Source: Patescibacteria group bacterium (GTDB taxonomy: Bacteria > Patescibacteriota > Patescibacteriia > CAIXNZ01). From it: DNA of 64,000 bases. Below the pieces are notes generated by a model. The model saw nothing but the letters and a program-made list of their open reading frames with translations. It did no database searches and was not told the DNA's origin. The DNA is taken from positions 1,932 to 65,931 of the forward strand of contig JBAZJU010000008.1 of the NCBI GenBank assembly GCA_041651155.1, in the 5' to 3' direction. Below, in pieces: positions 3,958-48,924 of the stretch (position 1 is its first letter; each line of letters starts with the position of its first letter). Made by a program: the position numbers and the translations under genes.

Positions 3958-5211
3958 TTAAATTAATCCTTTAAGGTATTTTATCAGTTTATCCAGCTTA
4001 ACTATTTCCAGCTTATCAGAATTTCTCGGCTTTATTTCCACGCTTTTAGCTTGCAAAGTTTTTGCGCTTAAAACAAGCCTGAACGGAATACCGATTAAAT
4101 CACTGTCTTTTAATTTAATTCCAGCTGATTCTTCCCTATCATCATATAGCACTTCAAAGCCAGCTTTAACCAGCTCATTATATAACTTGTCCCCATTTTT
4201 TGCAAGTTCCTTTTCTGAACCTAAAGTCAGTAAATGCAGGGCAAAAGGAGCCACTTCTTGGGGCCAAATAATACCCTTATTATCATGATGAATTTCAACT
4301 ATAGTCCCCATAAGTCTGCCCAAACCCATACCATAACAACCCATAGTAATAATAACTTCCTGCCCCTCGCTATTATTTACTTTTAAATCAAAAGGAAGTG
4401 AGTATTTTGTCTTAAGCTTAAAAATATTGCCTGTTTCAATGGCCTTGGCTTCTTTAAAATCTTTAACAGTCAGATTGCAGGTTTCACATTTAGTTATAAC
4501 CTCAATAATTTCTTTATTATAAGCAATTTTACATTTTGGGCAGATATAAATTGTATCTTCACCGGCTGGCGTGACTGTTTGAAATTCATGTGAATATTTT
4601 GAGAATGAAGATCCAGAAGCCAAAGTCAGATATGTTTCTGCTCTAATCCCTGCTCTTTGAAAAATCTTAAAATAAGCATCTTTAGCTTTTTCATAATATT
4701 CATCCAAATCTTTTTCGTCTAAATGGAAAGAATAAAGGTCTTTCATGACAAATTCCCTGCCACGCAAAATGCCGGACTTTGAACGCAATTCCATTCTGAA
4801 TTTATTTTGAAATTGATAAATATAGACCGGTAAATCTTTGTAGGAATTGATGAATTTTTTCATTAATGGCACAACCACTTCTTCATGAGTCGGTCCCAGC
4901 GCAAATTCATGGCCGCTTGAATCTTTAACTTTGTATAAATCATCCATGCTTGACCAACGGCCTGTTTTTTCCCAATTATCTTTAGGATGCAATGAGGGCA
5001 TCACAATTTCCTGGCCGCCAATATTATTCATTTCTTCACGAATAATATTCTCAAGCTTTTTAAAAACTCTTAAGCCCAGTGGCAATAGAGTATAGACGCC
5101 GGCTGCCAATTTATCAATAAAGCCTGCCCTAATTAATAATTGGGCATTAAGGCTTTTTTCCTCCTCCCCTATTTCTTTTTTAGTTTTGGTAAATAAAAAT
5201 GATTGTTTCAT
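3958..5211 (-). CDS. proS: prolyl-tRNA synthetase, short bacterial type without the INS editing domain; carries a CxxC...CxxC insertion
   Basis: 417 aa. Aligns closely to the ProRS N-terminus and class II motifs (LIRAGFIDKLAAGVYTLLPLG, LGPTHEEVVVPL, FRMELRSKSGILRGREFVMKDLYSFH). Contains the insert CPKCK...CETC. Confidence 0.9.
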   Translation of the reverse strand: MKQSFLFTKTKKEIGEEEKSLNAQLLIRAGFIDKLAAGVYTLLPLGLRVFKKLENIIREEMNNIGGQEIVMPSLHPKDNWEKTGRWSSMDDLYKVKDSSGHEFALGPTHEEVVVPLMKKFINSYKDLPVYIYQFQNKFRMELRSKSGILRGREFVMKDLYSFHLDEKDLDEYYEKAKDAYFKIFQRAGIRAETYLTLASGSSFSKYSHEFQTVTPAGEDTIYICPKCKIAYNKEIIEVITKCETCNLTVKDFKEAKAIETGNIFKLKTKYSLPFDLKVNNSEGQEVIITMGCYGMGLGRLMGTIVEIHHDNKGIIWPQEVAPFALHLLTLGSEKELAKNGDKLYNELVKAGFEVLYDDREESAGIKLKDSDLIGIPFRLVLSAKTLQAKSVEIKPRNSDKLEIVKLDKLIKYLKGLI

Positions 5212-5600
5212 ATTTTTATGCTTGGTTTAGATTTATAGCCCATGAAAAATATTTCTAAGATGACAAAGGCCAGAATTAAGAAAAAAATGTTTCTCCAGAT
5301 TAACAAATTAGCGCTTTTTAAAAACAAGCTGATGACTATTAACAAAGAAAACCAAACTGCCTGGCGGAATGAGGTAATAACTTTTCTGAAGATTAAATGC
5401 TCTGAGGTAAAAAATATCCTGGCAATCAGGCCAATTATGGAAAAAATCCCGATTAAAGTCAGCAATAAGCTGAAATAAAACAAAATTAATGCTAACAGAT
5501 TGGCCTTTGTCGGATCAAAAAAATAAACTACTGCTAAAAAAGCAAAAAAGCAGGCAATGGTGCATAAAAGCATTAAAATAATATAAGATCTTAATGTCAT
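5208..5600 (-). CDS. small polytopic membrane protein, function unknown
   Basis: 130 aa, about 4 predicted TM helices. Its stop overlaps the proS start, so it is probably co-transcribed with proS. Confidence 0.45.
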   Translation of the reverse strand: MTLRSYIILMLLCTIACFFAFLAVVYFFDPTKANLLALILFYFSLLLTLIGIFSIIGLIARIFFTSEHLIFRKVITSFRQAVWFSLLIVISLFLKSANLLIWRNIFFLILAFVILEIFFMGYKSKPSIKI

Positions 5601-5696: not shown

Positions 5697-5702
5697 TATT
5701 TT

Positions 5703-5744
5703 GCCTGCCTGCCCTGCCTACCGGCAGGCAGGCGGCAGGCAGGT
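5703..5744. other. GC-rich imperfect palindrome (gcctgcctgccctgcctaccggcaggcaggcggcaggcagg) in an otherwise AT-rich 390-bp intergenic region
   Basis: Read directly from the sequence. GTAG is present in the loop on the minus strand. Confidence 0.5.
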
Positions 5745-5987
5745 ATTGAATTCGTACATTAGTATCCAAATATAGATAATGGCGTTTTACCAAATTTAGG
5801 CAAATACGGCACTAAAACAAAAAAACGCTAAGAACAAGTTAGCTTAATTTTAGCAAATTTATATAAATTTAGCAATTGCCAAAATGGCCCAAGAACATTA
5901 TTTAAATACCTTAATTTTCTTAAATTAACTAAATAAAAAACACCACGCAACGCGTGACGTTTTTGCAATAAAATCAATTTATACAAA

Positions 5988-22248: not shown

Positions 22249-22356
22249 TTTTATTTTATTTGAAATTTGGATTTTGTTATTTGAAATTTATATTTATATT
22301 ATACCTTAAATATAAAAAAATTCCTAAAATAAAATTCGCAGATTCGCATTATTCGC

Positions 22357-22388
22357 CTGCCCGCCGTAGCTTTAGCGAAGGTGGGCAG
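22357..22388 (-). terminator. hairpin with a GTAGCTTTAGCGAAGG loop directly after the helicase-nuclease stop; probable terminator
   Basis: ctgcccgcc / ggtgggcag stem with a U-rich tract downstream on the minus strand. Flanked by direct repeats of gcagattcgcattat. Confidence 0.45.
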
Positions 22389-22398
22389 ATTCGCATTA

Positions 22399-25443: not shown

Positions 25444-25515
25444 ATTTGAGGCTAAGCCTTGAACTAAAGCTTAACTTTCTGGAGTCTCAAATTACTTCAA
25501 GGCTTAGCCTCAAAC
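25444..25515. promoter_or_regulatory. 20-bp perfect inverted repeat (tttgaggctaagccttgaa ... ttcaaggcttagcctcaaa) with a 32-nt spacer containing CTAAAGC, in the divergent region between the helicase-nuclease gene and the small-gene run
   Basis: Read directly from the sequence. Confidence 0.6.
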
Positions 25516-26835: not shown

Positions 26836-26903
26836 AATTGGCTTTTGTGCTTGACAACCAGCTAAATTTTTGCTTAACTTAAAGCAAATTTAAACAAAGG
26901 TCT

Positions 26904-26930
26904 CCTTCGTCCCGCGGAGCGGGACTACGG
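26904..26930. repeat. REP-like GC-rich hairpin element, copy 1 (CCTTCGTCCCGC-gga-GCGGGACTACGG); GTAG head on the minus strand
   Basis: 7-bp stem gtcccgc / gcgggac. 24/27 identical to the reverse complement of 37383-37409. Confidence 0.7.
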
Positions 26931-26950
26931 CGGACCGAGGGGAGGGAAAA

Positions 26951-27145
26951 ATGAGCGACATGTTGCTGGTTGAAGAACATCTTTGCCTAAACTGCAAAGA
27001 AACGTTCAGAATTGTGGTGATTGAAGAATCAGTCAAATTGACCAAAGAAGACAAGCGACTACTTAAAAATGACGGAATCTTTACTATCAAAAAAGGCAAA
27101 AAATTCGAATGCCCGAATTGCCTGCACAAAGTAGAAGTAAAATAA
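26951..27145 (+). CDS. zinc-ribbon mini-protein (CxxC...CxxC), tandem paralog 1
   Basis: 64 aa. Motifs CLNC...CPNC. SD GGGGAGGG. Upstream leader is similar to that of the paralog at 27226. Confidence 0.5.
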   Translation: MSDMLLVEEHLCLNCKETFRIVVIEESVKLTKEDKRLLKNDGIFTIKKGKKFECPNCLHKVEVK

Positions 27146-28497: not shown

Positions 28498-29172
28498 TTA
28501 AGTTTCTATATTATCAATTAATTCGGGGGAATTTAAACTCGTGTATTGCCAATTTTTTGGCAGGCCATGCTTCAAATGGTTATAAACCGTGTAATCATAA
28601 TGGTTGTCCCAATCCTTCTGTTTTTTCAAATGGTTATCATGGAAACGGATGTAATGGTCGTAAAATTTTCTCTGCCACTTGAATTTAGGGTACGGCGTTC
28701 CATTTTTAAATTTTTGATTAAATAAATCTTGATACCGCTGAACATCAAATTTCCATACATATAATTCATGGGGATTTAATATGGGTAGTCCAATAATCTT
28801 ACCTTTAAAAACATCCCCCATTCCCCGTAGGCCACACAATATTGTGTGGCCTACGGGGTTATTGGGATAATTATTTGTATAACCCATTATAATATTAATA
28901 TTGCGAGAAACATTTCTTTTCAAAGATTTCATCACGTGCGAAATATCAAATTTATTGTTTGGTTCAATCATCAAATTCACATGATCATAAATAATTGAAA
29001 AGGCATATAATTTAAATCCTTTCAATACTTTACAAATCTTTAAATTCTCAATAAATAAATCACAAAAAATTTGCTCCTTAAAATATGGGTAATTATTTTT
29101 CGTCTTAAACACGACGTAATAAATCGCGCCCGGGAAACAAATTCGCCTTATGGAATTTTTATGCAACATCAT
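28498..29172 (-). CDS. IS200/IS605-family Y1 (HUH) transposase-like protein, RAYT-like, probably catalytically degenerate
   Basis: 224 aa. Aligns to IS200 TnpA blocks: IYYVVFKTKNNYPYF matches YHIVFAPKYRR; YDHVNLMIEPNNKFDISHVMKSLKRNVS matches ADHIHMLLEIPPKMSVSSFMGYLKGKSS. The HUH motif reads HVN and the catalytic Tyr block is disrupted. Contains a 36-bp perfect palindrome. Confidence 0.6.
   Translation of the reverse strand: MMLHKNSIRRICFPGAIYYVVFKTKNNYPYFKEQIFCDLFIENLKICKVLKGFKLYAFSIIYDHVNLMIEPNNKFDISHVMKSLKRNVSRNINIIMGYTNNYPNNPVGHTILCGLRGMGDVFKGKIIGLPILNPHELYVWKFDVQRYQDLFNQKFKNGTPYPKFKWQRKFYDHYIRFHDNHLKKQKDWDNHYDYTVYNHLKHGLPKNWQYTSLNSPELIDNIET
28823..28858. repeat. 36-bp perfect palindrome inside the transposase-like CDS, with a GTAG head (ccccGTAGgccacacaatattgtgtggcCTACgggg)
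   Basis: Read directly from the sequence. In frame (12 codons, PVGHTILCGLRG) and located where the catalytic Tyr block of IS200 TnpA should be. Confidence 0.9.
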
Positions 29173-35836: not shown

Positions 35837-35928
35837 ATTTTAACTTGTCATGGTGAGCCCTTCGGCTAAGCTCAGGGCAGGCACTGAAAGTTTACAGTGA
35901 GCGTAGTCGAACTGAACCATTACATTAA

Positions 35929-37317
<1,389 letters not shown>

Positions 37318-37382
37318 TTAAATGATTAAATTGTTAATTGCTAAATTGATATTTGAATTTATTTTGTTTTTTGCCTTCGCAA

Positions 37383-37409
37383 ACCGTAGTCCCGCTGGGC
37401 GGGACGAAG
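37383..37409. repeat. REP-like GC-rich hairpin element, copy 2 (ccGTAGtcccgc-tgg-gcgggacgaagg), in the atpD-atpG spacer
   Basis: Same element in the opposite orientation. The GTAG tetranucleotide lies immediately 5' of the stem. Confidence 0.7.
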
Positions 37410-37431
37410 GTTTGAATTTTAGCATTTGTCA

Positions 37432-40893: not shown

Positions 40894-40925
40894 AATGTTG
40901 ATAAATAATAATAGAAAACTTATTA

Positions 40926-41004
40926 CTACAGATTACAGATATTTACAGATTTACAAATTTTTGAGATTTTCATTAGTATTTCTGTATGAATCTGTAATCT
41001 GTAG
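40926..41004. mobile_element. 79-bp MITE-like element with perfect 15-bp terminal inverted repeats (CTACAGATTACAGAT ... ATCTGTAATCTGTAG), between atpF and atpE
   Basis: Read directly from the sequence. A second copy lies at 43674-43754. Confidence 0.65.
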
Positions 41005-41060
41005 TCAAAATAATTACTTGCTCAAGGAGGCAAATTTTGTCTCCTTGGTGTAAATAATCA

Positions 41061-43673: not shown

Positions 43674-43754
43674 CTACAGATTACGGATAAATACAAATTT
43701 ACAGATAAATATAACTTTATAATTCGTATATCTGTACAAATCTGTAATCTGTAG
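43674..43754. mobile_element. 81-bp MITE-like element, second copy (TIR ctacagattacggat ... atctgtaatctgtag, 14/15 match), between tatD and cvpA
   Basis: Read directly from the sequence. Terminal repeats are shared with the element at 40926-41004. Confidence 0.65.
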
Positions 43755-44745: not shown

Positions 44746-46296
44746 TTATTCTAATCTTGGAAATAAGGCTGAACCTTTTTTAATTTTCTGACCCAAAGGC
44801 AGACTCGCCCAGGTTCTCAATTCTTCAATAGACTTTTTTTCTTCTTTGGCAGGATCAAAACCTAACTGGCTTAAGATTTCATTGCCGGTTTGAGGCATAA
44901 ACGGCCAGATCATGATTGCTGTCTGGCGCAAGGTTTCTAAAAGATTATACATTACGTCAACTAATACCTTGGGATTGCTCTTTGCCAGTTCCCAGGGTTT
45001 TTCCTTATCAATGTAAGCATTGCAACGCCTGATATTTTCCCAGGCAACGTTCAGAGCTTCGTCAAACTTTAAATTCCTCAGGAAAAAGTCATATCTGTCC
45101 CAGTCTGTTTTTAAATCAAAAGCAAAAAATTTGTCATAATCAACATTGTATTTTGGCACCACGCTATTATTATATTTTTCAGACATGGACAGCACTCGCG
45201 AAAGCAGATTGCCAAATTCATTAGCCAGGGCAGAATTATACTGTTGGTCTAATCTGGCTTTATTAAAATCACCGTCAGTCCCAAAGCCAAACTGCGATAA
45301 AAGCAGATACCTGGTGGCATCAGTGCCATATTTGGCGATTAATTCCTCAGGCAAAATCACATTGCCAATTGTCTTACTCATTTTCTGGCCATCCACAGTA
45401 AAAAATCCATGGGCAAAAACTATTTTTGGCAAAGGCAATTTTAAGGCCAAAAGCATGGCAGGCCAAATCACTGCGTGGAATTTTAAAATATCTTTAGCCA
45501 TTAAATGTACATTGGCAGGCCAGAATTTTTTATATAATTTTCCTTTTGGGCCGCCCAGGGCAGAGACATAATTTATTAAAGCATCAAACCAGACATAAAC
45601 TACTTGCTTTTCATCAAACGGCAATTTAATCCCCCATTTTACCTGTTCGCGTGAAATGGAAACGTCTTTTAAGCCAGTATTAATCAAACCCAAAATTTCA
45701 TTTTTTCTTGATTCAGGCATGATTAATAATTCATTTTTTTCAATCAGCTCTTTTAATTTTTGCCCGTAATCAGAAAGCCTGAAAAACCAGTTTTTTTCCT
45801 TAATCATCTGGCAGACTTTCTGGTGATCAACGCATTTATCATCAACTAATTCACTCTCAGTTTTGAATGATTCACAACCAACACAATACAAGCCTTCATA
45901 TTCCTTCTCATACAAGCAGTCATTGCCTAAAGGAGTTTTGGCTTTTTTCAGCTGCTTTAAAAATTCCACTACAACTTTCTTATGCCTGCTTTCAGTTGTG
46001 CGGATAAAATCATTATTGGAAATATCCAGGCTATCCCAGACAAGCTGAAATTTAGCTGCTTCCATATCAACAAATTCTTGCGGGCTCATGTTGTTCCTCT
46101 CTGCTGCCTGCGCTATTTTTGCTCCATGTTCATCTGTGCCTGCTAAAAAATAGACGTTGTCAGCGCCTAAAAGCATGCGATGATAGCGCGCTAAAACATC
46201 TGCGGCAATTGTGGTATAGGCATGCCCAATATGTGGCACATCATTCACATAATAAATCGGCGTGGTTACGTAAAATGTTTCTTGTTTTTTCGGCAT
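44746..46296 (-). CDS. metG: methionyl-tRNA synthetase
   Basis: 516 aa. HIGH motif (PHIGHAYT) and KMSKT motif. Zn knuckle CVGCESF...C.DH. Confidence 0.93.
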   Translation of the reverse strand: MPKKQETFYVTTPIYYVNDVPHIGHAYTTIAADVLARYHRMLLGADNVYFLAGTDEHGAKIAQAAERNNMSPQEFVDMEAAKFQLVWDSLDISNNDFIRTTESRHKKVVVEFLKQLKKAKTPLGNDCLYEKEYEGLYCVGCESFKTESELVDDKCVDHQKVCQMIKEKNWFFRLSDYGQKLKELIEKNELLIMPESRKNEILGLINTGLKDVSISREQVKWGIKLPFDEKQVVYVWFDALINYVSALGGPKGKLYKKFWPANVHLMAKDILKFHAVIWPAMLLALKLPLPKIVFAHGFFTVDGQKMSKTIGNVILPEELIAKYGTDATRYLLLSQFGFGTDGDFNKARLDQQYNSALANEFGNLLSRVLSMSEKYNNSVVPKYNVDYDKFFAFDLKTDWDRYDFFLRNLKFDEALNVAWENIRRCNAYIDKEKPWELAKSNPKVLVDVMYNLLETLRQTAIMIWPFMPQTGNEILSQLGFDPAKEEKKSIEELRTWASLPLGQKIKKGSALFPRLE

Positions 46297-46312
46297 AATA
46301 AAAATTTTTATA

Positions 46313-46349
46313 CCCTGCTTTAGCAGGATAATAGCCCACTAAAGTGGGG
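46313..46349. other. twin hairpin with TTTA and TAAA loops (ccctgcTTTAgcaggg + cccacTAAAgtgggg), 17 nt upstream of the metG start
   Basis: Read directly from the sequence. Same design as the inner hairpins of 48129-48224. Confidence 0.6.
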
Positions 46350-46386
46350 TGTAAATTATGATAATTTAAAAATCAAAAATAAAATT

Positions 46387-46779
46387 TTATCTTTTCCATT
46401 CTTTAATATCCGGGGAAAAATCTAATTGATAATCGGGAATACCTAAAGAAATCCCATATTTAGTTACCTCGTCATATTCAGCTTTTTCACTGCGATTAAC
46501 TTTAAAAACTTTATCTCTAAAAATAATATAATGAAATTGATCGTTTTTAAAATCAGCATACCAATTCCCATGACTTATATCCAATGATTGACTAATCTTT
46601 TCTGCAATCTCCTGAATCTCATTTTCCGGAATTTCAACGGTATGCAATGTCCATTGTTTAAGATGAGGAGTATGATGTTCTTCGGTTACAGTTTCAATTT
46701 TAGTATCCAAAATTTTGACTTTTTCCAAAATGTCTTTATTAATTAAACTTTCTTCAATTATTGTACCCTGAAAATTCAT
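46387..46779 (-). CDS. hypothetical protein (130 aa)
   Basis: ORF only. Confidence 0.3.
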   Translation of the reverse strand: MNFQGTIIEESLINKDILEKVKILDTKIETVTEEHHTPHLKQWTLHTVEIPENEIQEIAEKISQSLDISHGNWYADFKNDQFHYIIFRDKVFKVNRSEKAEYDEVTKYGISLGIPDYQLDFSPDIKEWKR

Positions 46780-46785
46780 ATTATT

Positions 46786-47130
46786 TTATTTTTTATTAAT
46801 AGATAATCTTTTAGTAATTTTACTAATAGCTAGCAATAAAAAGAAAATTGGTACTGCAAAAATTAAAAAATCTATTATAAAAATAAAAACATTTATATGT
46901 GTATTACCCCATGCATTATTTCCAAATTCTAATGGATAGCCTCGATAAGACGTGGCGCAATCTAGGCAAGAGAAGTGCGTAAGGCCAGTTGTCGGATCAT
47001 ATTGAGACACTCCTGTTGAAAATTCAAAATTTAACTCAAAAATCATTATCGCCGAAGCAATTAATAAAGATATTATTAAAATTAAATAATTCTTTTTAAA
47101 AAAATTTTCTTTTGATAAATTTTGATTCAT
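46786..47130 (-). CDS. hypothetical membrane protein (114 aa)
   Basis: Two TM helices. ORF only. Confidence 0.3.
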   Translation of the reverse strand: MNQNLSKENFFKKNYLILIISLLIASAIMIFELNFEFSTGVSQYDPTTGLTHFSCLDCATSYRGYPLEFGNNAWGNTHINVFIFIIDFLIFAVPIFFLLLAISKITKRLSINKK

Positions 47131-47159
47131 AGTTTTAATGTTAAAAATTTAAGTTTAAA

Positions 47160-48086
47160 TTATATTATTTTATTTTTTAAACTTACGACATTTTTATTTA
47201 ATTCCTCATCTGCAGGTAATCCATATTTTTTCCTAAAATTAATAATTCTTATTAAATTTTCTTCATCTGCCGAAGCATTTATTTTTGCCAAATTATTCAG
47301 AGCGCCTTTGCCTAGAGACATTATTAATTTAGCAATTTTTTCTATTCCACCATTGAAATAGACCCTTATAAACTCACGTATGATAGGCTCTTCACTTTCA
47401 TAAATAGTGCTATTAAGCATGGCAAGTTTTCGACATAAATCAAAAAATAAATTTTCAAAACTTTTATAACAATCAAATTTTTCTTTGTTGCTTAAATTTT
47501 CAATTGCTAAAGACGGAGCAGAAACTGGAAGCTCTATTTTATCTTTAACATAATCAAAATAACATACATTCGTTAAAAAAACAGTCATTGCTTCGTTTAA
47601 GCCTTGGAAGTCAGGCTCATTTAAATCCACCCTCAGCCCAACTTTTAAATTTTTCAACTCAAATTGTTCTTTATTCCTTTTAATTCTTGTTTTTTGATTA
47701 GAACTGGCATGAAGTAATTCATGGCAAAATATCATTAATTTTGTTAATTCATCCCATTTTTTGTACCGTTGTTCATTTACATAAATCCCTCCGCTCCTGT
47801 AAAAAGCTCCTACTTGCTCATTAGATTCTTTAATAAAATCTTCGCGTGGCAATAGATGCAGCATTTCTAATTTAATATCCAGTGGTTTTACCCCATAATT
47901 ATTTGCCAAGTCAGTAACTATCTCCTTGGCTTTTGTAAAAAATTTTATAAATTGTGGATCTTTTTCCAATTCATTTTCATTTTTTACAGAAGCATACCCT
48001 TCTAAATAATCACTCGCTTCGCTATCAGTCTTTTTTTTACCTTCATCTATTATTTGAATGTTAAATTTTGGTTTTTCTGAATTCAT
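47160..48086 (-). CDS. hypothetical protein with an HExxH motif (putative zinc metallopeptidase-like)
   Basis: 308 aa. FCHELLHASSNQ contains HELLH. No further support. Confidence 0.3.
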   Translation of the reverse strand: MNSEKPKFNIQIIDEGKKKTDSEASDYLEGYASVKNENELEKDPQFIKFFTKAKEIVTDLANNYGVKPLDIKLEMLHLLPREDFIKESNEQVGAFYRSGGIYVNEQRYKKWDELTKLMIFCHELLHASSNQKTRIKRNKEQFELKNLKVGLRVDLNEPDFQGLNEAMTVFLTNVCYFDYVKDKIELPVSAPSLAIENLSNKEKFDCYKSFENLFFDLCRKLAMLNSTIYESEEPIIREFIRVYFNGGIEKIAKLIMSLGKGALNNLAKINASADEENLIRIINFRKKYGLPADEELNKNVVSLKNKII

Positions 48087-48128
48087 AAATCCTTTAATTT
48101 TTCAGCCTATATTATCTTATTTTTTATT

Positions 48129-48224
48129 GGGCGAAAACGCTCGGTCTTATTCTACCGGCGACTTTAGTCGCCGTTCAACCGCCACTAAAGTGGCGGTTAG
48201 GAAATTGAGAAGGCGTTTTCGCCC
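48129..48224 (-). ncRNA. candidate structured RNA element (96 nt, three stems) in the 5' leader of the 47160..48086 gene, or 3' of rsmI
   Basis: 12-bp closing stem gggcgaaaacgc / gcgttttcgccc. It encloses two 7-bp hairpins, cggcgacTTTAgtcgccg and ccgccacTAAAgtggcgg. Strand assignment is uncertain. Confidence 0.35.
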
Positions 48225-48261
48225 TTCCATATTTCATAATTCAGATCTCAGCTATCAGAAT

Positions 48262-48924
48262 TCATCCCACCACCACCACAAACTCCCCTTTTGTCACCCC
48301 CTTTTCCAGTTCAGCCAAAACCTCAGCAATGCTCCCCCGATAAACTGTTTCAAATTTCTTGGTCAATTCACGACAAACCACAACATGCTTATCCAAACCC
48401 ATTTCTTTTAACTTATTCAAAGTCTTCAAAATCCTGTGTGTTGACTCGTAAAAAACAGAAGTGAATTTATTATTAATGATTTCTTTTAAAATTGTTTCCT
48501 TGCCTTTTTTATGAGGTAAGAATCCATAAAAGACAAATTTATCAGTTGGCAAGCCAGAAATTGATAAGGCAGAAATTGCAGCATTTGCGCCTGGGATTGG
48601 TTCAATTTTTAGTTCTGGAATTTCTTTAAGCACCAATTCAATCAGCTTATTCCCCGGGTCAGAAATTCCTGGCGTACCAGCGTCAGAAACTAAAGCCAGA
48701 TCTTTGCCTTGTTTAAGCAAATCAATTATCTGATTAACCTTAGCCAAGCCAGAATGCTGAAAATAAGAAATTGTTGGAGTTTTAATCCCGTATTTGTCCA
48801 AAAGTATTTTAGTTGTACGCGTATCTTCGCACAAAACAAAATCAACTTCCTTAAGTATTCTTAAGGCTCTTAAACTAATATCTTCCAAATTCCCGATCGG
48901 AGTAGCGACAATATATAATTTCAT
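48262..48924 (-). CDS. rsmI: 16S rRNA 2'-O-methyltransferase RsmI
   Basis: 220 aa. MKLYIVATPIGNLEDISLRALRILKEVDFVLCEDTRTT is the canonical RsmI N-terminus. Confidence 0.85.
   Translation of the reverse strand: MKLYIVATPIGNLEDISLRALRILKEVDFVLCEDTRTTKILLDKYGIKTPTISYFQHSGLAKVNQIIDLLKQGKDLALVSDAGTPGISDPGNKLIELVLKEIPELKIEPIPGANAAISALSISGLPTDKFVFYGFLPHKKGKETILKEIINNKFTSVFYESTHRILKTLNKLKEMGLDKHVVVCRELTKKFETVYRGSIAEVLAELEKGVTKGEFVVVVG

What the first reader, a model, noticed from the sequence alone, without database searches (positions are those of the whole stretch)
48129..48224. 96-nt three-stem element (12-bp closing helix plus two 7-bp hairpins with TTTA and TAAA loops): candidate structured RNA
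gggcgaaaacgc [15 nt] CGGCGAC-TTTA-GTCGCCG [5 nt] CCGCCAC-TAAA-GTGGCGG [16 nt] gcgttttcgccc. A second locus (46313-46349, 17 nt upstream of metG) has the same pair of hairpins with different stem sequences (ccctgc-TTTA-gcaggg; cccac-TAAA-gtgggg). That is covariation that preserves structure and loop sequence. Both lie just upstream of minus-strand gene starts (the 47160..48086 gene and metG). A paired TTTA/TAAA-loop module does not correspond to any riboswitch or leader known to me.
Basis: seen in the sequence. Interest (0 to 1): 0.65.

Follow-up and report, generated by a model that had tools for sequence, protein, structure and literature searches.

The report
REP-like nested palindromic repeat, CPR bacterium
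The 96-nt three-stem element is real, but it is one copy of a dispersed family of strand-symmetric nested palindromes (most like REP/REPIN/BIME repeats) found between genes in a clade of Patescibacteria, not a gene-specific riboswitch or leader RNA.

Summary
The element is at 48129-48224 as described and folds far better than shuffles (z about -8 on both strands). It is not a leader RNA tied to one gene.

A metagenome scan for its outer helix (GGCGAAAACGC...GCGTTTTCGCC) found 115 stretches. About 85 are low-GC, Patescibacteria-like contigs. The helix encloses interchangeable palindromic interiors.

The element reads the same on both strands. It shows no sense/antisense folding or G-U bias, no target-site duplication and no U-tract. 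It sits tightly between genes of many different kinds.

Downstream of rsmI, related genomes keep the outer helix but carry different interiors. The second locus (46314-46348) is a helix-less copy of another dispersed doublet and folds best as one long hairpin. RAYT-like transposase genes occur on two element-bearing contigs.

Rfam and the searchable literature have no match. Best reading: a REPIN/BIME-like repeat family, new for this phylum. Its function, whether selfish DNA or an intercistronic mRNA structure, is unproven.

The parts
48129..48140 (.). Outer arm GGGCGAAAACGC. It is itself a mini-palindrome (GGGCG-AAAA-CGCC) and is the conserved, REP-like end of the element.
   Evidence: The same arm pair occurs in 115 metagenome stretches and in L003.
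48213..48224 (.). Outer arm GCGTTTTCGCCC, the inverted copy of the first arm. Together they form the 12-bp closing helix.
48156..48173 (.). Inner hairpin 1, CGGCGAC-TTTA-GTCGCCG, preceded by CTAC (GTAG on the other strand).
   Evidence: The C-TTTA-G loop is invariant and the stem covaries in 17 family members.
48177..48198 (.). Inner hairpin 2, AACCGCCAC-TAAA-GTGGCGGTT. It is an inverted, stem-diverged copy of hairpin 1.
   Evidence: (I18, 79% complementary to hairpin 1).
48225..48261 (-). AT-rich flanking module between the rsmI stop codon and the element. On the gene strand it reads attcTGAtagcTGAgatcTGAattaTGAaatatggaa, with TGA every 7 nt, which covers all three reading frames.
   Evidence: Near-identical modules lie next to elements in L141, L121, L154, L171, L177, L191, L192, L137 and L138. 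The ATGA[AG][AG]T core lies upstream on the sense strand in 11 of 61 elements, against 1-3 in each of the other three positions.
46307..46355 (.). Second locus. A doublet without the outer helix (CCTGC-TTTA-GCAGG at 46314-46327; CCCAC-TAAA-GTGGG at 46335-46348) with TTTATAC/GTGTAAA outer flanks. It folds best as one long hairpin.
   Evidence: The same stems and flanks occur in L144 2859-2896 between different genes. The family model scores it 24.3 and 23.8 bits, E about 0.02.

Best explanation
The element is one copy of a lineage-specific family of interspersed, nested palindromic repeats in a clade of Patescibacteria (Parcubacteria/Buchananbacteria-like). Its architecture is that of a REPIN or BIME.

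Anatomy. Two copies of a short imperfect palindrome, GGGCG-AAAA-CGCC(C), lie in inverted orientation at the ends and pair to form the closing helix. They enclose a variable spacer that is itself built from palindromic modules. Here the spacer is a second-level inverted doublet of hairpins with C-TTTA-G and C-TAAA-G loops.

Likely mechanism (inferred, not shown). The family is propagated and homogenised at the DNA level, by single-strand hairpin transposition through a RAYT-type HUH/Y1 transposase, by template switching or gene conversion between copies, or both. Small palindromes appear to land in, or be swapped within, the loop of the outer palindrome.

Likely RNA consequence (inferred). Because copies sit inside co-directional gene strings, they are probably co-transcribed and form a very stable stem (-45 to -70 kcal/mol). 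That stem may incidentally, or by co-option, act as an intercistronic stabiliser or processing site.

The element is not a ligand-sensing or gene-specific regulatory RNA.
For: Shown by tool results:
1. Family size. The outer arm pair with a 60-90 nt gap occurs in 115 metagenome stretches and in no viral contig. About 85 stretches are on low-GC contigs, many homologous to the window at 70-90% nucleotide identity.
2. Interchangeable interiors. The same helix encloses at least five interior classes. All fold with z of -6 to -14.
3. Multiple copies per contig. Ga0209777_10000015 carries at least three (L110, L121, L138). L147 and L149 each carry two.
4. Strand symmetry. The TTTA-then-TAAA order is the same on both strands. 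The family model scores both strands about equally. In 61 elements the sense-minus-antisense fold energy averages 0.06 kcal/mol (Wilcoxon p = 0.30), with 137 versus 130 G-U pairs.
5. Position. Copies fill intergenic gaps between unrelated gene pairs, often 1-40 nt from each gene.
6. Ends. There is no target-site duplication and no U-tract after the element.
7. Interior turnover at the same site. Downstream of rsmI the outer helix is present in the window, L003, L126, L102, L106, L132 and L091/L112, but with interior types A, A-prime, C, B, B, B and C. The same holds at a second site (L104, L105, L158, L165).
8. Decay and compensation. Copies not selected by the search pattern include compensated helix variants (CGGC/GCCG; GGCAAAAACGC/GCGTTTTTGCC), single mismatches and truncated copies.
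9. Free-standing modules. Interior modules also occur without the helix, at window 46314-46348, L144, L192 4177-4266 and window 35846-35920.
10. Candidate enzyme. RAYT-like Y1 transposase genes occur on element-bearing contigs L107 and L177. They are common in Patescibacteria, and JGI names several homologues 'REP element-mobilizing transposase RayT'.

From the literature. REPINs are inverted REP doublets of about 90 nt with a variable spacer that still folds, two possible configurations, and vertical persistence (PMC3337134; bioRxiv 10.1101/2021.07.10.451892).
Against: - Copy number looks low: one full element in 64 kb here, and roughly one per 100 kb on the 332-kb contig. Classical REPINs number in the hundreds per genome.
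- The REP hallmark GTAG 5' of the hairpin is absent from the outer arm. In the inner hairpins it lies 3' of the hairpin.
- No RAYT gene is in the window, and none was shown to be flanked by these repeats.
- No clean empty site (presence/absence polymorphism) was found, so mobility is inferred, not shown.
- Persistence of the helix at the same intergenic sites, and a flanking module with an orientation bias towards the upstream sense side, hint at host-level function.
- The metagenome set was chosen by exact helix match, so helix conservation in that set is partly ascertainment.
Confidence: 0.68

Rival explanations
1. A host-selected intercistronic RNA structure. The GGGCGAAAACGCC helix would be kept at particular intergenic sites as a processing site (for example for RNase III), a 3'-end protector or an insulator between cistrons. 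The interior would be free to vary so long as it folds.
For: - An element with the same helix is present at the same intergenic sites in genomes whose flanking genes are only 75-90% identical, while the adjacent flanks are not conserved.
- Compensated helix variants exist.
- Placement is tight: just after a stop codon, and 10-25 nt before the next start codon, followed by an A-rich leader.
- A stop-rich flanking module lies preferentially upstream on the sense strand.
Against: - There is no sense/antisense asymmetry in stability or G-U use.
- The family model scores both strands equally.
- About 10% of copies lie between divergent genes.
- Truncated and decayed copies exist.
- Palindrome self-correction at the DNA level can mimic compensatory change.
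- Helix conservation in the metagenome set is partly ascertainment.
- No expression data are available.
Confidence: 0.2
2. A miniature inverted-repeat transposable element (MITE) moved by a DDE transposase that recognises the 12-20-bp terminal inverted repeats (GGGCGAAAACGCCCTTTGTC).
For: It has terminal inverted repeats, is about 85-110 nt long, occurs in several copies per contig and has variable internal sequence.
Against: - No target-site duplication flanks any of about 80 copies.
- No longer element with the same ends enclosing a transposase was found; arm pairs in the held loci are 50-160 nt apart.
- Solo arms are rare.
- Copies persist at the same sites across species, which is not MITE-like according to the bioRxiv paper read.
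Confidence: 0.07
3. A cis-regulatory leader or riboswitch-like RNA controlling the 308-aa gene and metG.
For: - Both loci lie upstream of gene starts on the minus strand.
- Loops are conserved and stems covary.
- A promoter-like TTGAAC-18-TAGAAT lies inside the element on the gene strand.
Against: - In L132 the homologue of the 308-aa gene follows a type-B interior. In L102 it has no element in front of it.
- metG in L003, L132, L180 and about 25 other relatives has no hairpin pair upstream.
- The same doublet as locus 2 sits before a YbaK-like gene in L144.
- Promoter-like hits point either way across the family.
- No unpaired segment is conserved that could bind a ligand.
- Rfam gives nothing.
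Confidence: 0.03
4. A recombination site marking the edge of a gene-cassette region, working like an integron attC site.
For: - The rsmI-metG gap holds different small genes in different relatives.
- The element is always at the rsmI edge of that gap.
- Its ends are conserved and its centre variable.
Against: - Most cassette junctions have no element.
- The same element also sits between conserved gene pairs with no insertion (site 2).
- There is no R''/R' core pairing: GTTCAAC and GTTAGGA are not complementary (read directly).
- No integrase lies nearby.
Confidence: 0.04
5. An intrinsic transcription terminator for rsmI.
For: It is a stable GC-rich stem 37 nt after the rsmI stop codon, and the arms contain A4 and T4 tracts.
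Against: - No T-run follows the stem on the gene strand. The downstream flank is A-rich here and across the family.
- The only terminator-like hit in the consensus scan is on the + strand (48126-48145, overlapping the 5' arm), not the gene strand.
- Canonical A-tract/hairpin/T-tract terminators exist elsewhere in the window and look different.
Confidence: 0.08

Closest known systems
REPINs (REP doublets forming hairpins) with RAYT transposases, as in Pseudomonas fluorescens and E. coli
   Same: - Two short imperfect palindromes in inverted orientation form a hairpin of about 90-110 nt.
- The spacer varies between copies but always folds.
- Copies are extragenic.
- Two doublet configurations exist, one common and one rare: TT-AA/AA-TT in REPINs, TTTA>TAAA/TAAA>TTTA here.
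- There is no target-site duplication.
- Copies persist at the same sites across species.
- RAYT-like genes occur in the lineage (PMC3337134).
   Different: - No GTAG lies 5' of the outer palindrome.
- Copy number appears to be tens, not hundreds.
- RAYT genes were not shown to be flanked by these repeats.
- A second doublet is nested inside the first.
[quoted passage not shown]
BIMEs (bacterial interspersed mosaic elements) of enterobacteria
   Same: Both are mosaics of a few palindromic unit types plus short linker and flanking motifs, combined differently at different loci. Both are intergenic within operons. Paired units differ from each other by stem changes. This comparison rests on my own knowledge of the BIME literature.
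   Different: The sequences are unrelated. The modules here are nested rather than tandem. No IHF or gyrase binding is known.
Correia elements and other MITEs (Neisseria)
   Same: Both are about 100-150 nt with terminal inverted repeats that form a long stem in mRNA, and both have internal variants. Correia elements are co-transcribed with flanking genes; these elements probably are too, since they lie within co-directional gene strings, but that is inferred, not shown. This comparison rests on my own knowledge.
   Different: No TA duplication was found. No parent insertion sequence was found. Copies are stable at the same sites across species.
Integron attC sites
   Same: Both have conserved paired ends and a variable centre, are defined by structure more than by sequence, and can lie at the edge of a variable gene region.
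   Different: There are no R/L core boxes, no integrase and no one-site-per-cassette pattern. The element is also found between conserved genes.

Membership tests
REP / REPIN-RAYT system | Short imperfect palindromes arranged as inverted doublets that form a larger hairpin | tested here: met
   The outer arms GGGCG-AAAA-CGCC and GGCG-TTTT-CGCCC are inverted and paired. The inner hairpins are 79% complementary to each other. Locus 2 folds as one long hairpin.
REP / REPIN-RAYT system | Many dispersed extragenic copies within one genome | tested here: inconclusive
   There is one full copy and one helix-less doublet in 64 kb. At least three copies lie on one 332-kb contig, and two on each of L147 and L149. 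No complete genome was available.
REP / REPIN-RAYT system | Conserved GTAG tetranucleotide 5' of the palindrome | tested here: not met
   The outer arm has no GTAG. For the inner hairpins of the window, GTAG or TTAG lies 3' of the hairpin on the strand where it reads GTAG. Other type-A copies have TRTA there. Only the type-C interiors (GTAGAGAC...GTCTCTAC) start with GTAG.
REP / REPIN-RAYT system | A single-copy RAYT (HUH/Y1) gene in the same genome, flanked by the repeats | tested here: inconclusive
   RAYT-like ORFs lie on element-bearing contigs L107 (5246-5797) and L177 (~4707-5351), 1-3 kb from an element but not flanked by one. None is in the window.
MITE | Terminal inverted repeats plus a target-site duplication | tested here: not met
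   Terminal inverted repeats are present, but no direct repeat flanks any of about 80 copies.
MITE | A full-length insertion sequence with the same ends | tested here: not met
   Arm pairs in 1.6 Mb of held sequence are all 50-160 nt apart. Two-copy loci enclose an APH-family kinase, not a transposase.
Riboswitch / cis-regulatory leader | Consistent association with one gene family, and conserved unpaired nucleotides | tested here: not met
   The neighbouring genes differ from locus to locus. Only the tetraloops and the helix are conserved. Rfam has no match.
Strand-specific structured RNA of any kind | The structure is better on the transcribed strand (G-U tolerated, A-C avoided) | tested here: not met
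   In 61 elements the mean energy difference is 0.06 kcal/mol (p = 0.30), with 137 versus 130 G-U pairs. The family model scores both strands equally.
Intrinsic terminator | GC-rich stem followed directly by a U-tract on the transcribed strand | tested here: not met
   The downstream flank is A-rich, and the scan found no gene-strand terminator.
Integron attC | R''/L'' and L'/R' boxes, one site per cassette, and a nearby integrase | tested here: not met
   The core boxes are not complementary. Most cassette junctions lack an element. No integrase is among the neighbours.

The most novel reading that the evidence does not exclude
The GGGCGAAAACGCC helix may be a host-maintained docking site at fixed intercistronic positions across a Patescibacteria clade. 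On this reading its loop acts as a landing pad where small palindromic modules (the TTTA/TAAA doublets, GTAG-type REPs and others) are repeatedly inserted and exchanged. That would make it a modular, two-tier hairpin-in-hairpin repeat system with a role in operon RNA processing or genome plasticity in streamlined genomes, possibly serviced by the RAYT-like enzymes that carry a REP palindrome inside their own gene.
Probability: 0.2. Interest if true: 0.7.

Novelty: new variant of a known kind. Interest (0 to 1): 0.45.

Why it matters
Patescibacteria have tiny, tightly packed genomes and are usually thought to carry little repetitive DNA. [quoted passage not shown]

A nested, REPIN-like family that persists at the same intergenic sites while its interior is swapped would extend that biology to a very different phylum. 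It would also give markers for strain and lineage tracking in metagenomes. It would explain many spurious 'structured RNA' and small-ORF calls in these genomes.

For the scan itself, the practical lesson is that strand-symmetric hairpin doublets with reverse-complement loops should be read as REP-like DNA repeats before they are read as RNA motifs.

Tried and rejected
- **Rfam.** Searches at gathering and permissive thresholds on the window, and at gathering threshold on 13 related loci, found nothing relevant.
- **Promoter module.** A TTGAAC-18-TAGAAT match lies inside the element on the gene strand, but equivalent matches in other copies point either way. Rejected as a general feature.
- **Terminator.** There is no U-tract.
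- **Target-site duplication.** None found.
- **Sense versus antisense folding bias.** None found.
- **attC-like site.** The core boxes do not pair, and elements are not one per cassette.
- **DNA-uptake-sequence idea.** The 10-mer GCGAAAACGC occurs only twice in 64 kb, both times inside the element, and solo arms are rare.
- **Viral contigs.** No match.
- **Reverse arm order (TTTT...AAAA).** None in the held loci.
- **Short-spacer 'empty' outer palindromes.** None in the held loci.
- **Empty orthologous site.** I looked near window 54880 by comparison with L190 and L132. The neighbouring gene differs, so the comparison is uninformative.
- **Literature.** Searches by sequence string and by keyword (CPR/Patescibacteria with REP, MITE, hairpin or inverted repeat) found no description.
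- **RAYT homologue in the window.** tblastn found none.

Full report
**1. The observation**

- A 12-bp closing helix: GGGCGAAAACGC paired with GCGTTTTCGCCC.
- Hairpin 1: CGGCGAC-TTTA-GTCGCCG at 48156-48173.
- Hairpin 2: CCGCCAC-TAAA-GTGGCGG, which extends to 9 bp at 48177-48198.

As RNA it folds to -54.2 kcal/mol on the + strand and -50.3 on the - strand. The z-scores are -7.3 and -8.0, and no shuffle of 200 does as well. In the 36%-GC window, only this locus and 46314-46348 carry adjacent GC-rich hairpins with TTTA and TAAA loops.

Two corrections apply to the second locus. Its stems are 5 bp, not 6. Its best fold on either strand is a single long hairpin in which the two 'hairpins' pair with each other.

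- TTTA and TAAA are reverse complements.
- The two inner hairpins are 79% complementary to each other (I18).
- The outer arms read identically on both strands.

The whole element is therefore a pseudo-dyad.

**2. Setting**

All nearby genes are on the minus strand. In order they are:
- an rsmI-type methyltransferase (48262-48924);
- the element;
- three genes with no Pfam match, of 308, 114 and 130 aa;
- the second hairpin pair;
- metG (44746-46296).

The organism is a Patescibacterium. The closest genome locus is L003, a Parcubacteria MAG with metG 81% and rsmI 86% identical. In roughly 25 of the 39 related genome loci with an rsmI match, rsmI ends within about 150 nt (mostly 10-80 nt) of the metG start. 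Only the window's lineage has genes inserted between them, and the inserted genes differ between relatives.

**3. A large family**

L003 carries a homologous element directly after rsmI. It reads TGGCGAAAACGCCC ... ACCCC-TAAA-GGGGT ... AAGGC-TTTA-GCCTT ... GGGCGTTTTCGCCA. It has the same outer helix and the same loops, with different stems.

A metagenome scan for GGCGAAAACGC-N60-90-GCGTTTTCGCC returned 115 stretches. The viral collection returned none. About 85 stretches are low-GC contigs, many 70-90% identical to the window or L003 in their flanking genes.

The same helix, often extended to GGGCGAAAACGCCCTTTGTC, encloses several interior types.
- **A**: the TTTA/TAAA hairpin doublet.
- **B**: gtcattctgagcgaagcgaagaatc... 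long palindromes.
- **C**: GTAGAGACACGG-TATA-CCGTGTCTCTAC.
- **D**: nested CGCGAAAACCCGC.
- **E**: gtcaccctgag...cgaagggtg.

All fold very stably. One 332-kb contig carries at least three copies.

On an alignment of 17 type-A copies, the loops C-TTTA-G and C-TAAA-G are invariant or nearly so. Six of seven pairs in each hairpin change on both sides. Overall 93% of cells are paired, against 78% in shuffles and 37-46% when partners are slid.

A covariance model built from this alignment finds the window element on both strands at 81.8 and 77.2 bits. It finds L003 at 42 and 40 bits, and the second window locus at 24 bits (E about 0.02). It finds nothing significant in 80 other Patescibacteria loci. 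The family with this helix therefore looks clade-restricted.

**4. Why it is not a gene-specific RNA**

- Strand symmetry. The TTTA-then-TAAA order is unchanged by reverse complementation. A rarer TAAA-then-TTTA type also exists (L003, L158, L185, L192).
- No strand bias. For 61 elements with a clear gene direction, sense and antisense fold energies do not differ (mean 0.06 kcal/mol, p = 0.30). G-U pairs number 137 and 130.
- Many gene contexts. Copies lie between many unrelated gene pairs, usually co-directional, often 1-40 nt from each ORF.
- No terminator. The downstream flank on the gene strand is A-rich, with no U-tract.
- No duplication. No target-site duplication flanks any copy.
- No consistent promoter. 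Promoter-like matches inside type-A interiors point either way.
- No link to the 308-aa gene. Its homologue follows a type-B interior in L132 and has no element before it in L102.
- No link to metG. In relatives, metG lacks the hairpin pair.
- Locus 2 is a separate repeat. The doublet at 46314-46348 recurs with the same stems and flanks in L144, between a 103-aa gene and a YbaK-like gene.
- No Rfam match. Rfam has no matching family for any interior type.

**5. Dynamics**

Downstream of rsmI the outer helix is present in the window, L003, L126, L102, L106, L132 and L091/L112. The interiors there are A, A-prime, C, B, B, B and C. L091/L112 also carry a compensated helix variant, GGGCGAAAACGGC paired with GCCGTTTTCGCCC. 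A second orthologous site (L104, L105, L158, L165) shows B, A, A-prime and B.

Contigs about 90% identical in their flanks (L084 versus L147) share the helix and the type-C core but differ in the rest of the interior.

Copies that were not selected by the search pattern include the following:
- compensated helix variants;
- single mismatches;
- truncated halves;
- a TTTA hairpin inserted within a type-B arm.

Interior modules also occur without the helix, at window 35846-35920, L192 4177-4266 and L144.

One caveat applies. The metagenome loci were chosen by exact helix match, so helix conservation within that set is partly ascertainment. The window, L003 and the L091/L112 rsmI site are free of that bias.

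**6. Candidate enzyme**

A motif search followed by Pfam found IS200-like Y1 transposase ORFs in two other Patescibacteria loci, L021 and L025. Homologues are common in Patescibacteria, and JGI names several 'REP element-mobilizing transposase RayT'.

tblastn finds such genes on two element-bearing contigs, L107 (5246-5797) and L177 (~4707-5351). It finds none in the window.

These genes carry a GTAG...CTAC palindrome in frame just after the HUH motif (peptide VGTGRDLSL and variants; L107 has GTAGAGACGCATAGCTATGCGTCTCTAC). This is the type-C module. So the lineage encodes RAYT-like enzymes and GTAG-type REPs. The enzyme's link to the TTTA/TAAA doublets or to the outer helix is not shown.

**7. 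Interpretation**

The anatomy matches the published definition of a REPIN (PMC3337134; bioRxiv 10.1101/2021.07.10.451892):
- two short imperfect palindromes in inverted orientation, forming a hairpin of about 90 nt;
- a spacer that differs between copies but always folds;
- two possible configurations;
- long vertical persistence.

The mosaic of modules also recalls BIMEs.

The differences are:
- no 5' GTAG on the outer palindrome;
- apparently low copy number;
- a second doublet nested in the first;
- no RAYT shown to be flanked by the repeats.

I therefore describe it as REPIN/BIME-like and do not file it as a proven REPIN-RAYT member. Propagation by single-strand hairpin transposition or by template switching is inferred. 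A co-opted role of the very stable stem in polycistronic mRNA remains possible and is the main rival.

**8. Verdict**

The structured-RNA or leader interpretation is not supported. The element belongs to an apparently undescribed, clade-specific family of nested palindromic repeats. Novelty: a new variant of a known kind. Interest is moderate (0.45).

Noticed in passing
window 46297-48261; L003 4269-5988; L102, L106, L126, L132, L180, L091: The rsmI-metG gap is a variable small-gene region in this lineage only. Related genomes carry different combinations: a 308-aa HEXXH protein, 114-aa and 130-aa proteins, a GDSL hydrolase, a cytidine deaminase, a 166-aa protein, and a gene that looks MazG-like (my reading of its sequence, not a database hit). 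In most other Patescibacteria rsmI abuts metG.
   Followed up: partly
L107 5246-5797 (-); L021 1392-1991; L025 2092-2589; proteins P0002-P0039: RAYT-like Y1 transposases of Patescibacteria carry a GTAG...CTAC palindrome in frame right after the HUH motif. It encodes VGTGRDLSL-like peptides. The REP-like sequence therefore sits inside the transposase gene rather than beside it.
   Followed up: partly
window 48225-48261 (-); flanks of L141, L121, L154, L171, L177, L191, L192, L137, L138, L095, L104, L165, L180: Short tandem-repeat modules lie next to one side of many elements, mostly upstream on the sense strand. One form has TGA every 7 nt. Others are tatgaggtt repeats or ggaaatag repeats. All are rich in stop codons in all frames. 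Their function is unknown.
   Followed up: partly
window 22352-22389; 26893-26959; 37371-37415; flanks in L132, L195, L163, L091: Another hairpin module has a conserved internal loop: stem-CTTCGC-TAAA-GCTWCG-stem, or CCGTAG-[hairpin]-CGAAGG. It shares the TTTA/TAAA tetraloop and contains GTAG. In L091 its loop carries a further insertion.
   Followed up: partly
window 35846-35920; L100 9900-10075: A roughly 75-nt palindromic module (gtcatggtgagccc...) is free-standing in the window. By eye it looks about 88% similar to a copy nested inside a larger palindrome in L100.
   Followed up: partly
window 28823-28858; 5698-5751; 25445-25514; 40920-41010; 43674-43754: Other strong intergenic palindromes are present. 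They include a perfect 16-bp stem CCCCGTAGGCCACACA-ATAT-..., a GCCTGCC-repeat hairpin, a 23-bp stem, and two AT-rich ctacagattacagat... palindromes. The genome is peppered with several palindrome families.
   Followed up: no
L003 4269-4288; L110, L137 and L159 flanks: A GGCCAGGCCTAGGCCTAGAC motif abuts the outer helix in several copies. It is another mosaic flanking module.
   Followed up: no
L097, L098, L108, L114, L125, L130, L136, L146, L184 (GC 0.62-0.70): High-GC soil contigs carry AAGGGCGAAAACGCGAAA...TTTCGCGTTTTCGCCCTT palindromes built from GCGAAA repeats. This looks like a separate family in another phylum that happens to share the 11-mer.
   Followed up: no
L170 2461-3080: Perfect inverted repeats of at least 264 bp flank the element. 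This is probably a fold-back assembly chimera seeded by the hairpin.
   Followed up: no
window 1-64000: No tRNA gene and no Rfam family at gathering score occurs in 64 kb. Nearly all genes are on the minus strand.
   Followed up: no
window 47160-48086 (-): The 308-aa protein has an HELLH (HEXXH) motif but no Pfam match. An 81%-identical homologue is in L132, and a partial match (61 aa at the locus end, 90% identical) is in L102.
   Followed up: no
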